Positions 34,101 to 37,100 of a stretch of 64,000 bases of DNA are shown here, one piece after another. Each line of letters begins with the position of its first letter. The stretch's first letter is position 1. Location of the stretch: NCBI RefSeq assembly GCF_044647545.1, contig NZ_CP172818.1; one strand, written 5' to 3'. The stretch is from Escherichia coli. GTDB taxonomy: Bacteria; Pseudomonadota; Gammaproteobacteria; Enterobacterales; Enterobacteriaceae. The position numbers were made by a program.

Positions 34101-37100
34101 GGCACCAATAAAAAGTGGTCTGAAGATCACGCCCATCGTGTGCTAAAAAGTCTTGAAGATAATCTTTTTGCAGCGCTTGGTGAACGTAATATCGCTGAGT
34201 TAAAAACTCGAGCCCCCCCCCCCTCCAGTGTCTCCCCGTGTGGCCGGGACCCCCCCAAGACCCACAGCTGACCGGGGATGACGTCTCCCCGTTCCCGCCA
34301 GTCCCCCTTCCCTCACCGGCCCCCCCGACTCCCCCCCGCCCGCGAACCCACGCCTGCCGCGAAAACAGGATGAACCCCAAAAGCCGTGAAAGACGGCAAA
34401 AAGGACCCCCCCGCCCGGGGGGGGAGTAAGCGCACCGGCCCGGGCGCGGCGCCCCCCGCAACCGGCGGGGGCCGCCCAGCGCCCGGCGGACTCCCTACAC
34501 CACGACGCCCCGGCGCGGGGGCGCCCCGACGCGAACGGGTGCCGCGACGCCAAACGTCCGGCCCCGACCGCGACGAAAACCGCGACCGCCACGAAACGGC
34601 ACACACAGGCGAAACACAGCGGCCGACGCGGCGCGGACGGGAGGGCGGCCCCGCGGCCGCGGGCACGCACGGGGCACCCGCGCCAACGGAACAGACAGGC
34701 CCGCCCCGACCCCCCCGGGGGCGCGGCGCACCGGGCAGAAACCCCCCCCGGGGGCAACCGAACGCGGGCCGGATCGCAGCCGAACAACGCCCCCCCAACC
34801 CCCCCCCCCCCCGGGTGTTCCTTTAACCATCCGCAATGGCCAACGGTTTACAGAGCATAATACGAATAGCCGTAGAGCCAGCCAGTTACGGTGGTCGCGA
34901 TGGTGTGTCCGCCAGAAAATCACCACGAATACCAGAATCGCGGCACTGACCAGAAAATGATAAACAGGAAACACGGGGAGGTTCACTTTGCTTTCTCCTG
35001 TAGTATTTTCTGTAGGTTCTGAACCGGTTCGAGCGGGGTTGTGAGGCTGATGGCAATCCCCGGGCTCTTCCTGCATGTTACACTGGTACTGCAACAGGGG
35101 GCCTTCGCTCCTATGACATTACTCAGTATTTTCACTACTACACCCCATCTGCCATCCATAACAACCGATTCACCCCCTCGGGAGGCGTTGTTGCCCGTCA
35201 CCCGGACAGGCATCGTTATGGACTTCTCTTGTTGCACGATCGATCAATTGTTATGCATGCTGACACCACTACCCCGGTGGGTATGACCGATGCCTTTCTC
35301 ACTCTCTTCCCGGTCATCGTCGGCCTTCCCCGTTATTGTGGCGTGTCGGCACCATCGACGGCATTTCGATGGCTGCTCAGTGTTCACTCACGTTACGGCC
35401 CGCATAACCCATTGACTTCCTGAAGAAGTCGTTTCAGGGAGAGATTCAGCCCTTTTGTTACCTCCTGGACCGCTTCCTGTCCTTCCAGTTGGAGCGAGAG
35501 TTAGTCGGGGCGGACTTTCACCGACGGAAAGATCGTGCATTTCAAGGCACACACAACAATATCTGCGAGCGTGCTATCCGTCCGGTCGTTATGGGACGAA
35601 AGGCCTGGTTGTTCGCTGGTTCACTGATGGCCGGGAACCGAGCGGCACAGATAATGAGCCTTCTGGAAACAGCAGTCTGGAGCCACATGCTTGGCTGACG
35701 GACGTCCTAACGCGTCTGCCCGGAGTGGCCGGAGGAGAGGTTGGCAGAGTTACTGCCTCTTGAGGGCTTTACCTTCTTTGGGTAAGTGATACCTGCCGTC
35801 AGGTGTTTGTGCACCGGGCCATAACCTGCAGTTGGGAATTGAACGCCTGACAACAGGAAATGAGCTAGAGCAGTAAACACGCGGGCTGACAATGGGTCAG
35901 AATATGAGTCTGCCCGGCGTTATTCTTGGGGTCAGTACTTCAGATCCAGCCTCCGGTACCAGACTAGCTAGCCCCTACGCAACCAAATAAATCAACCATC
36001 GTAAGAGTGCAATCGTTCATATACACTGCCGGTGATGGGCGGAAAAATGCGTTAATGTTGAGTTCCTCGAACCCTTACCAATTAAGGGACATAGCCAGAT
36101 ACGCAACTGGCTGATGCAAGCAGTCTGATGTCTTTAGATTCGCTGGCCTGCGGGCATGACAATGTCAAACAGTCAAAGATTGTGGCGTTGACGGTCAGTC
36201 TCGGTGGTCGAAAAAGCTCAGTATTCTCGTTGGCAACCAGATAATTTAACAGTTGATGCTGAAACGAAATAGGCATCTTGGTTCTGTAATGCCAGTCAGT
36301 TAAGCAACTGACTGGCTCTTTTTCGGGGCTGTGGGGTATTTCCAGGGCCTCTCCTTTACCACTCTCGGGAAGGCCCTTTCCCTTCTTGTCGGTAATTTCA
36401 CAAGTTGTCCCATACTTGCAAGATCGCGCATCAGCTCCGGTATACGTCCCGGTGAAGCGCCCTGCAATGTCATCAGCATTCTCATCACCATTCCGCATGA
36501 TTCTGAGAAACTCAGTTGATTCGGCCAGTAACCTTTCAGATGTTCCGCCATTTTAATCATCTGATATCTCACCAGATTATAAGCCAGTAAGACACCCCGC
36601 AGCTCTTGCTCCACAAGCTCCGGTTTTTTACTTCTCAGCGTCAGCCTGCTCAGTTGCATCGTCTGTTTTATCTCCCTGTATCCCAGTTCGATTTCCCAGC
36701 GATGACTGTACAGATCCGCCATTTCTCCTCCGGGGAAGCGCATGGCGTCCGTCATCGACGTCAGCAGATGGCAGACTTTTCCTTTGCGCGTCACGGTCAG
36801 CAGGCGGGCTGTCACTTCATTTCCCAGTCCCGGCCACTTTTTTCGTGCCTGCGGGCTGGTTTTCAGCTTCACCAGATGATCGCCTTTACCCAGTTTTCTG
36901 ATCTCTTCATATTGCGCTCCCTTTCTGAGAGGTATCATCCAGTGGCGGTGTTCTCCCGCCAGGCTCCAGGCATTTAACAGTCCCAGTGAGTAATAACCTT
37001 TATCCATTAACGTCAGAGTGTTATCGCCGGTTTGTTCTATAAGTTGCTCAGCAAGCTCATTTTCGCTGTTCTTCATCGTGCCGAAGGCTGCAGCCGTCAG

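What the first reader, a model, noticed from the sequence alone, without database searches (positions are those of the whole stretch)
34211..34815. ~605-bp segment almost lacking T, extremely GC-rich, with no counterpart I can recognise
Directly visible: by manual count only about 10 T in 34321..34800 and a 216-nt run (34558..34773) with no T at all. The plus strand is built only from C, G and A, so the complement lacks A. Flanking E. coli sequence is roughly balanced. Natural bacterial DNA, even from high-GC taxa, does not show a three-letter strand composition over hundreds of bases. All four overlapping ORFs predicted here are Pro/Gly/Arg/Ala low-complexity frames on both strands, so it is very unlikely to be coding. 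Possibilities, none of which I can settle from sequence: a base-calling or assembly artefact, a cloning or synthetic-derived insert, or a genuinely unusual element (it would be strongly G-quadruplex / i-motif-forming). If read-verified it would be the most unusual object in the window.
Basis: seen in the sequence. Interest (0 to 1): 0.85.

Follow-up and report, generated by a model that had tools for sequence, protein, structure and literature searches.

The report
Orphan three-letter GC-rich block, probably artefact
A 603-base stretch made almost only of C, G and A sits in a dead integrase gene of one E. coli assembly; it matches nothing else known and behaves like random sequence. It is most likely junk from sequencing or assembly rather than biology, but only the raw reads or a PCR can settle that.

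Summary
Window 34213..34815 (603 bp) is 78% G+C with C 47%, G 31%, A 18% and T 4%. It contains a 216-nt run with no T (34558..34773); the longest run elsewhere in the window that lacks any one base is 44 nt.

The block lies in a decayed locus: tRNA-Leu(CAA), then a 5' fragment of a P4-type integrase, then a fragment of a phosphoethanolamine-transferase pseudogene. In 451 complete E. coli genomes these two fragments are joined by 16 bp (ATTTATTAGCACCTAT). Here those 16 bp are replaced by the block, and the flanks are otherwise identical to that allele.

The block is a singleton:
- It is absent from 5,426 complete E. coli genomes and from the plasmid, phage, viral, metagenome and 100,044-species genome collections.
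- A six-frame search of 1.84 billion representative proteins found only the ORF from its own contig.

Internally it has no codon periodicity, no repeats or structure beyond chance, clumped homopolymers and a composition that drifts along its length. It is therefore not a gene, an RNA or a mobile element.

My best reading (about 0.6) is non-biological sequence kept in the consensus. The rivals are real untemplated or laboratory-made filler DNA, or DNA from an unsampled GC-rich source. Read mapping or one PCR would decide.

The parts
33512..33596 (+). tRNA-Leu (anticodon CAA), the leuX-type integration site for P4-like elements
   Evidence: ARAGORN; Rfam tRNA match, 59 bits; annotated as tRNA-Leu in relatives.
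33783..34212 (+). 5' fragment (143 native codons) of a P4-type tyrosine integrase (intB-like). It ends in the native XhoI site CTCGAG at 34207..34212.
   Evidence: ORF. It is 100% identical to L002 over 33572..34212. Relatives annotate it as a truncated tyrosine recombinase. The ORF reads on into the block for 19 more codons (P0002).
34213..34815 (.). The orphan block: 603 bp of almost three-letter sequence (C/G/A on the + strand), 78% G+C. It begins with C11 (34213..34223) and ends with C14 followed by GGG (34799..34815). It replaces the 16 bp ATTTATTAGCACCTAT of the ancestral allele.
   Evidence: No match; one search found only its own ORF.
34558..34773 (+). T-free run of 216 nt inside the block (A-free on the minus strand)
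34816..34971 (-). Internal fragment of a phosphoethanolamine-transferase pseudogene (yjgX-like). It starts exactly at the breakpoint of the old deletion (TGTTCC...).
   Evidence: 99.93% identical to L002 over 34816..36205; annotated as a pseudogene fragment in L002 and K-12. The 199-aa ORF P0001 (34498..35094, minus strand) runs from here into the block.
36300..37646 (-). IS4 transposase (insG). It is context only and shows that the block sits in a decayed KpLE2-like island.

Best explanation
The block is most likely not part of the organism's DNA. I think it is non-biological sequence that entered the consensus of this one assembly. Possible sources are a noisy stretch of a single long read used as assembly backbone, a failed or run-off finishing read, or a bad gap patch. 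It would have survived polishing because good reads cannot align across it.

The true sequence at this position would then be the 16-bp scar ATTTATTAGCACCTAT found in the closest relatives. On this reading the block has no function and no mechanism; it only adds spurious ORF extensions to two pseudogene fragments.

Shown here:
- It is a singleton.
- It has no relatives.
- Its internal statistics are random-like.
- It replaces 16 bp of an otherwise identical allele.

Inferred, not shown: that the cause is technical, and which technical step was responsible.
For: 1. It is a singleton.
- Neither flank-spanning nor block-only searches find it in 5,426 complete RefSeq E. coli genomes.
- 451 of those genomes carry the same integrase/transferase junction with only the 16-bp filler, at up to 100% identity.
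- Two ORFs that read into the block exist in a 15-billion-protein collection on exactly one contig, an NCBI record of 4,499,902 bp.

2. It has no relative anywhere.
- Plasmids and phages: none.
- Five k-mers or patterns against viral contigs: none. The HSV-1 reference is shown to be in that collection.
- Metagenomes: none. 100,044 species genomes: none.
- Six-frame protein search: only its own ORF, at E = 2.7e-53. This also shows that the low complexity of the sequence did not blind the search.

3. Its internal statistics look like noise.
- There is no 3-base periodicity.
- The longest direct and inverted repeats and the distinct k-mer counts equal low-order Markov expectation.
- The DNA folding z-score is -1.1.
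- Homopolymers are inflated: four C7 runs in the tested interior against 0.4 expected, one G8, and AA at 1.86 times expectation.
- Composition drifts in one direction.

4. It overwrites 16 bp rather than inserting cleanly. There is no target-site duplication and there are no terminal inverted repeats.

5. It lies in dead DNA between two pseudogene fragments, so selection offers no reason for it.
Against: - The flanks are perfect right up to both junctions (100% and 99.93% identity), and the rest of the window is an accurate, natural mosaic with no second orphan block. The assembly is therefore not sloppy in general.
- The block begins exactly at the 3' edge of one of only three XhoI sites in 64 kb. 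It also starts and ends with long C tracts. Both features hint at manipulated real DNA or at a template that ended at a restriction cut.
- I could not see reads, quality values or the assembly method.
- A real, extremely GC-rich singleton would give the same negative searches.
Confidence: 0.6

Rival explanations
1. The block is real DNA made without a template, that is, filler synthesised by a terminal-transferase-like activity. This could have happened in vitro (for example homopolymer or heteropolymer tailing of an XhoI-cut clone that was later recombined into the strain). It could also have happened in vivo, with the product of a template-independent polymerase of the protein-primed Abi/DRT type captured at a double-strand break that lost 16 bp.
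For: - The internal statistics are random-like, with a strongly skewed base preference and a composition that drifts along the strand. This is how template-independent polymerases write DNA (10.1101/634790).
- E. coli defence polymerases that make random single-stranded DNA without a template exist: AbiK/Abi-P2 (PMC9508834) and DRT4 (PMC12783706).
- The junction loses 16 bp with no duplication, as at an end-joining event.
- The block starts exactly after a native XhoI site and has C tracts at both ends.
Against: - No such polymerase is encoded in the window; all 64 kb are covered by ordinary E. coli genes.
- The known products are protein-linked single-stranded DNA that has not been reported to integrate. 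DRT4 prefers dA/dG and DRT7 makes poly(T)/poly(A), which are not C/G-rich products.
- As far as I know, E. coli has no efficient end joining (my own knowledge).
- Classical dG:dC tailing leaves a G tract at one end and a C tract at the other on the same strand. Here both ends carry C tracts.
- It has been seen only once.
Confidence: 0.2
2. The block is real foreign DNA from a GC-rich source that none of the collections I could search contains. Vertebrate rDNA spacers and repeat regions of GC-rich eukaryotic viruses are examples of A-poor, G+C-rich sequence. It could have been inserted by illegitimate recombination or joined to the E. coli sequence as a chimeric library molecule.
For: - The minus strand (G 47%, C 31%, T 18%, A 4%) resembles the A-poor, G+C-rich style of vertebrate rDNA spacers and alphaherpesvirus repeat regions. 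This comparison rests on my own recollection and was not tested.
- Eukaryotic genomes are not directly searchable with these tools.
Against: - Five k-mers or patterns from four parts of the block are absent from the viral collection, which does contain the HSV-1 reference.
- There is no Rfam rRNA hit.
- The six-frame search of 1.84 billion proteins, which includes ORFs called on assemblies of public sequencing runs, finds nothing but its own ORF.
- There are none of the internal reiterations common in such regions.
- 216 nt with no A at all on the minus strand is extreme even for such sequences.
- A cultured isolate should carry no host DNA.
Confidence: 0.12
3. The block is an ordinary sequence rewritten by strand-biased hypermutation or by loss of a detection channel. 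Examples are A-to-G deamination on the minus strand (T to C on the plus strand), or T read as G and A read as C in a failing dye channel.
For: Purines and pyrimidines are balanced (R 49%, Y 51%). That is what complete T-to-C change plus partial A-to-G change of a normal sequence would leave.
Against: - Two-letter encodings (R/Y, K/M, S/W) of the block show no match above shuffled controls to the deleted native 2.18 kb, the window, or 245 kb of related loci.
- Transition-tolerant patterns of 48-59 nt from two parts of the block match nothing in viral, metagenome or 100,044 species genomes.
- The pyrimidine-only tracts of 14 nt at both ends (C11TCC at the left, C14 at the right) are unlikely in an ordinary precursor.
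Confidence: 0.03
4. The block is a functional genetic element: a gene for a low-complexity protein, a structured RNA, or a mobile element.
For: All six frames are open through the T-free part, and gene callers did extend two ORFs into the block.
Against: - There is no codon periodicity and no homologue.
- There is no Rfam match, and the folding z-score is -1.1.
- There are no terminal inverted repeats and no target duplication.
- It exists as a single copy in a single genome.
- The open frames are an automatic consequence of a strand with no T: its complement has no A, and every stop codon needs both.
Confidence: 0.02

Closest known systems
Unsupported consensus sequence in finished genomes (junk from a noisy single-molecule read or a failed finishing read, kept because polishing cannot delete large insertions)
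   Same: Seen in one assembly only, no homologue anywhere, random-like with inflated homopolymers and skewed base calls. It overwrites a few true bases, and the flanks are otherwise perfect.
   Different: I cannot show the reads, so the cause is inferred. The exact start at an XhoI site and the long C tracts at both ends are not predicted by this model.
Untemplated DNA: TdT N-regions and in vitro TdT heteropolymers; random ssDNA made by the protein-primed Abi/DRT polymerases (AbiK, Abi-P2, DRT4)
   Same: Random sequence with an enzyme-specific base bias that can drift along the strand (10.1101/634790). Template-independent polymerases do exist in E. coli (PMC9508834, PMC12783706).
   Different: N-regions are a few nucleotides long, not 603. 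The Abi/DRT products are protein-linked single strands with no reported chromosomal integration, and the base preferences reported for DRT4 and DRT7 differ from this block. No such gene lies nearby.
G-less cassette and other designed three-letter transcription templates (my own knowledge: Sawadogo and Roeder 1985)
   Same: One strand uses only three of the four bases over hundreds of bases.
   Different: Those cassettes are designed, of moderate G+C content and free of long homopolymers, and they sit behind a promoter in a plasmid. This block is 78% G+C, has C11 and C14 tracts, loses its T only gradually and matches no plasmid.
dG:dC homopolymer-tailed cloned inserts
   Same: Homopolymer C tracts lie at the insert boundaries, next to restriction sites.
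   Different: Tailing gives a G tract at one end and a C tract at the other on the same strand. Here both are C tracts, and the XhoI site is native chromosome sequence.
A-poor, G+C-rich natural sequences (vertebrate rDNA spacers, alphaherpesvirus repeat regions)
   Same: The overall composition of the minus strand is similar.
   Different: No k-mer matches a viral collection that includes HSV-1. There are no reiterations, and the block has no A at all on that strand for 216 nt. Eukaryotic genomes themselves could not be searched.

Membership tests
Insertion sequence / transposon / MITE | Terminal inverted repeats | tested here: not met
   The repeat finder reports no terminal inverted repeats. 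The two ends are both C tracts in direct orientation.
Insertion sequence / transposon / MITE | Target-site duplication at the insertion point | tested here: not met
   16 bp of the ancestral allele are lost and nothing is duplicated.
Insertion sequence / transposon / MITE | Further copies in this or other genomes | tested here: not met
   There is no second copy in the window, in 5,426 E. coli genomes, or in the plasmid, phage, viral, metagenome and species-genome collections.
Protein-coding gene (low-complexity Pro/Gly/Arg/Ala protein) | Three-base periodicity of composition | tested here: not met
   Base counts per codon position are flat, and the autocorrelation has no peak at lag 3.
Protein-coding gene (low-complexity Pro/Gly/Arg/Ala protein) | Homologous proteins elsewhere | tested here: not met
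   Three frames searched against 5.8 billion proteins gave no hit. Six frames searched against 1.84 billion representatives gave only the block's own ORF.
Structured non-coding RNA | Match to a known family, or folding more stable than composition predicts | tested here: not met
   Rfam at E <= 1 finds only the neighbouring tRNA. The folding z-score is -1.1.
Horizontally acquired bacterial, phage or plasmid DNA | A recognisable donor or related sequence | tested here: not met
   No match in plasmids, phages, viral contigs, metagenomes or 100,044 species genomes.
Horizontally acquired eukaryotic or eukaryotic-virus DNA | A recognisable donor sequence | tested here: inconclusive
   Reference eukaryotic viruses are covered (HSV-1 is present) and gave no match. 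Eukaryotic genomes are not searchable here except indirectly through ORF collections, which found nothing.
dG:dC-tailed cloned insert | G tract at one end and C tract at the other on the same strand | tested here: not met
   C11 at the left end and C14 at the right end, both on the + strand.
Deaminase hypermutation or channel-collapse copy of ordinary DNA | The two-letter (R/Y or K/M) pattern of a source sequence is preserved | tested here: not met
   No signal above shuffled controls against local sequence. Transition-tolerant patterns are absent from three large collections.
Untemplated polymerase product | Random-like sequence with a skewed, drifting base composition | tested here: met
   Repeat and k-mer statistics are Markov-like. 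Bases run C>G>A>>T, and T decays from the left end (Fisher p = 6e-7). Base-calling noise meets the same criterion.
Untemplated polymerase product | A responsible polymerase in the same genome, and physical presence of the DNA | not testable with these tools
   Only 64 kb of the genome is available and no reads. No polymerase or RT gene lies in the window.
Sequencing or assembly artefact | Present in one assembly only while close relatives have ordinary sequence at the site | tested here: met
   One contig in 15 billion proteins' worth of assemblies. 451 genomes carry the 16-bp allele and none carries the block.
Sequencing or assembly artefact | No support, or abnormal support, in the raw reads | not testable with these tools
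   Reads, quality values and the assembly method are not available.

The most novel reading that the evidence does not exclude
The block is real chromosomal DNA that was polymerised without any template. The candidate enzyme is a terminal-transferase-like or protein-primed Abi/DRT-type polymerase. Its product would have been captured during repair of a break in a dead integrase gene. That would be a natural example of several hundred base pairs of entirely new sequence arising in a bacterial chromosome.
Probability: 0.07. Interest if true: 0.9.

Novelty: not a real feature. Interest (0 to 1): 0.22.

Why it matters
If the block is an artefact, as I think most likely, its value is practical. One public assembly carries 603 bp of sequence that should be flagged. 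That sequence creates two chimeric ORFs (162 aa and 199 aa) which have already entered large protein collections as orphan proteins.

If the block proved to be physically present, it would matter much more. A random-like, three-letter, 603-bp filler with no template anywhere would be direct evidence that untemplated DNA synthesis can write new sequence into a bacterial chromosome. Untemplated synthesis is currently being studied only as an antiphage mechanism. That reading is improbable on present evidence, but it is cheap to test.

Tried and rejected
1. Remnant or mutated copy of the native 2.18 kb present in K-12. Local alignments in the full alphabet and in five reduced alphabets gave no signal above shuffles.

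2. Transition-only or channel-collapse copy of nearby sequence. Ungapped two-letter correlation against the window and 245 kb of loci gave nothing.

3. The same idea tested against large collections with IUPAC R/Y patterns. Nothing was found.

4. Herpesvirus-like origin, suggested by the many C7 runs.
- Five scans of viral contigs were negative, and a control scan showed that the HSV-1 reference is in that collection.

5. Coding sequence from a high-GC organism. There is no periodicity and no protein hit in six frames.

There was no significant local alignment. The best was a TruSeq fragment at P = 0.035 before correction for 18 probes.

7. SmaI site at the right end as a cloning mark. CCCGGG occurs five times inside the block, so it is expected from composition alone.

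8. Identifying the source genome.
- Positional look-ups of the two chimeric ORFs returned nothing.
- The Ahr allele is too common to help.
- A paper search for the contig length found nothing relevant.

9. A literature search for read-noise bursts gave nothing usable.
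Full report
**1. Observation**

I read 33600..35500 and counted bases. The anomalous block is 34213..34815 (603 bp). Its composition is C 47%, G 31%, A 18% and T 4%, which gives 77.8% G+C against 50.5% for the rest of the window.

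There are ten T in 34321..34800, and a T-free run at 34558..34773 (216 nt). Elsewhere in the 64 kb the longest run lacking any one base is 44 nt.

The T's decay from left to right: 16 fall in the first 110 nt and 10 in the remaining 493 nt (p = 6e-7). The block has three compositional zones: a C-rich zone that still has some T, a 60-nt A-rich patch, and a zone with G roughly equal to C and almost no T. It starts with C11 and ends with C14 followed by GGG.

**2. Locus and ancestral state**

The surrounding genes run in this order:
- ahr
- tRNA-Leu(CAA), 33512..33596
- a 5' fragment of a P4-type integrase, from 33783
- the block
- a fragment of a phosphoethanolamine-transferase pseudogene
- IS4, followed by a K-12-like KpLE2 island carrying the nan and fec genes

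In K-12 the two gene fragments are separated by 2,180 bp: the rest of the integrase and most of the transferase pseudogene.

The closest relative on the left flank is strain CUVET20-416. It already has that 2.18 kb deleted, and its junction reads CTCGAG-ATTTATTAGCACCTAT-TGTTCC. A 301-bp probe across this scar finds it in 451 of 5,426 complete genomes, at up to 100% identity.

The window is identical to this allele for 641 bp on the left and 99.93% identical for 1,390 bp on the right. The only difference is that the 16 bp are replaced by the 603-bp block. The CTCGAG immediately before the block is therefore native sequence. The right limit coincides with the old deletion breakpoint.

**3. Is the block anywhere else?**

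No.
- It has no match in the complete E. coli genomes by megablast or by word-11 blastn at E <= 1. None of the 902 genomes that hold both flanks together covers the block.
- It is absent from plasmids and phages.
- Exact 22- to 25-mers from four parts of the block are absent from viral contigs. A control k-mer showed that this collection contains the HSV-1 reference, so GC-rich eukaryotic reference viruses are covered.
- It is absent from JGI metagenomes and from one genome for each of 100,044 species.
- Three reading frames searched against 5.8 billion proteins gave nothing.
- A pseudo-protein joining all six frames, searched against 1.84 billion representatives, returned one hit: the 199-aa ORF called on the very same contig, at E = 2.7e-53. 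This serves as a positive control that the low complexity of the sequence did not blind the search.

An exact look-up shows that this ORF and the 162-aa integrase-fusion ORF each occur on a single contig, an NCBI record of 4,499,902 bp. The block is therefore in a public assembly, and only in that one.

**4. Anatomy**

- There is no three-base periodicity.
- The longest direct repeat (13 nt) and inverted repeat (14 nt), and the numbers of distinct 4- to 8-mers, are what a zero- to second-order Markov chain of this composition gives.
- DNA folding is no more stable than in shuffled sequences (z = -1.1).
- Rfam finds only the tRNA.
- Homopolymers are inflated: four C7 runs in the tested interior (34321..34798) against 0.4 expected, one G8, and AA at 1.86 times expectation.
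- There are no terminal inverted repeats and no target duplication.
- The open reading frames in all six frames follow automatically from the composition. A strand with no T has a complement with no A, and every stop codon contains both a T and an A.

**5. Tests of specific origins**

- Mutated copy. A copy of the native 2.18 kb or of nearby sequence, altered by transitions or by loss of a detection channel, is not supported. Reduced-alphabet alignments and correlations stay within shuffled controls. Transition-tolerant patterns match nothing in three large collections.
- Homopolymer tailing. Classical dG:dC tailing predicts a G tract at one end and a C tract at the other on one strand. Here both are C tracts.
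- Restriction sites. The CCCGGG at the right end is one of five in the block and follows from composition. The XhoI coincidence is more striking, because only three sites exist in 64 kb. I cannot explain it. It could be chance, at about 1-2% for any palindromic hexamer, or it could be a trace of a template or clone that ended at an XhoI cut.
- Adaptors.

**6. Quality of the rest of the window**

Every other part of the window is fully covered by other E. coli genomes. Differences from relatives are clustered natural polymorphism with almost no indels. There is no second orphan block, and the assembly is not generally poor. This weighs somewhat against a crude artefact.

**7. Interpretation**

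A templated natural sequence cannot lack one base for 216 nt. The block must therefore come from one of four sources:
- a process that writes sequence without a template;
- a process that erases one base;
- a measuring error;
- a very unusual unsampled source.

Erasure is largely excluded (section 5). The block is a singleton at a site where 451 genomes carry an ordinary 16-mer. It is random-like, with clumped homopolymers and a composition that drifts in one direction. It overwrites true bases, and it lies in dead DNA. Together these fit non-biological sequence kept in a consensus best, and I give that reading about 0.6.

A plausible route, which is inference and not shown, runs as follows. 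A single noisy long read, or a failed or run-off finishing read, supplied the backbone across this junction. Polishing could not remove a 600-bp insertion, because good reads do not align across it.

The main rival (0.2) is real untemplated filler, made in vitro or in vivo. Template-independent polymerases write exactly this kind of biased, drifting random sequence (10.1101/634790), and E. coli defence systems include such enzymes (PMC9508834, PMC12783706). Against this, their products are protein-linked single strands with different reported base preferences, none is encoded in the window, and chromosomal capture has not been reported.

DNA from an unsampled GC-rich eukaryotic source gets 0.12. 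Hypermutation gets 0.03, and a functional element 0.02.

**8. Verdict**

The non-coding reading is supported. No biological function is indicated. I classify the block provisionally as not a real feature. Interest is low (0.22) unless read mapping or a single PCR (886 bp against 299 bp) shows that the block is physically present. In that case the untemplated-synthesis reading would make it very interesting.

Noticed in passing
window 33572..33597; L002 22048..27621: Strain CUVET20-416 carries a 5.5-kb islet (resolvase-family recombinase, HTH protein, hypotheticals) between tRNA-Leu and the integrase fragment. The islet is bounded by a 26-bp direct repeat. The window has the empty site with a single copy of the repeat.
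   Followed up: partly
window 34207..34212 and 34816; L001 3013..5192: The integrase/transferase junction is an older 2,180-bp deletion relative to K-12. The scar allele (CACCTAT|TGTTCC) is present in 451 of 5,426 complete E. coli genomes.
   Followed up: yes
window 1..64000: The window is a natural mosaic.
- 47-64 kb is 99.9% identical to K-12 MG1655 in one piece.
- 34.8-53 kb, compared with K-12 directly, keeps K-12's gene order, including IS4, IS30 and the fec operon.
- 22-34.2 kb is 99.9-100% identical to non-K-12 strains.
- 1-22 kb reaches only 98.0% identity with any complete genome.
   Followed up: partly
window 17000..20000 (yjgL-argF region): This stretch is hypervariable. It is only 87-95% identical to the best-matching E. 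coli genomes, with up to 128 differences per kb, while the neighbouring genes are nearly identical.
   Followed up: no
window 33783..34268 (+) and 34498..35094 (-): Two chimeric ORFs, of 162 aa and 199 aa, start in the pseudogene fragments and read into the block. Both are already stored in a 15-billion-protein public collection as products found on a single contig. The 199-aa ORF is the sole member of its cluster. The 162-aa ORF sits in a 252-member cluster of integrase fragments.
   Followed up: yes
protein cluster of P0002: Many Shigella sonnei assemblies have the same integrase fragment truncated at contig ends (contigs of about 17 kb, products of 125-183 aa). This suggests a repeat or IS boundary inside this gene in that species.
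   Followed up: no
window 23860, 34207, 52106: CTCGAG (XhoI) occurs only three times in the window, and the orphan block begins exactly at the 3' edge of one of these sites. I have no explanation for this.
   Followed up: partly
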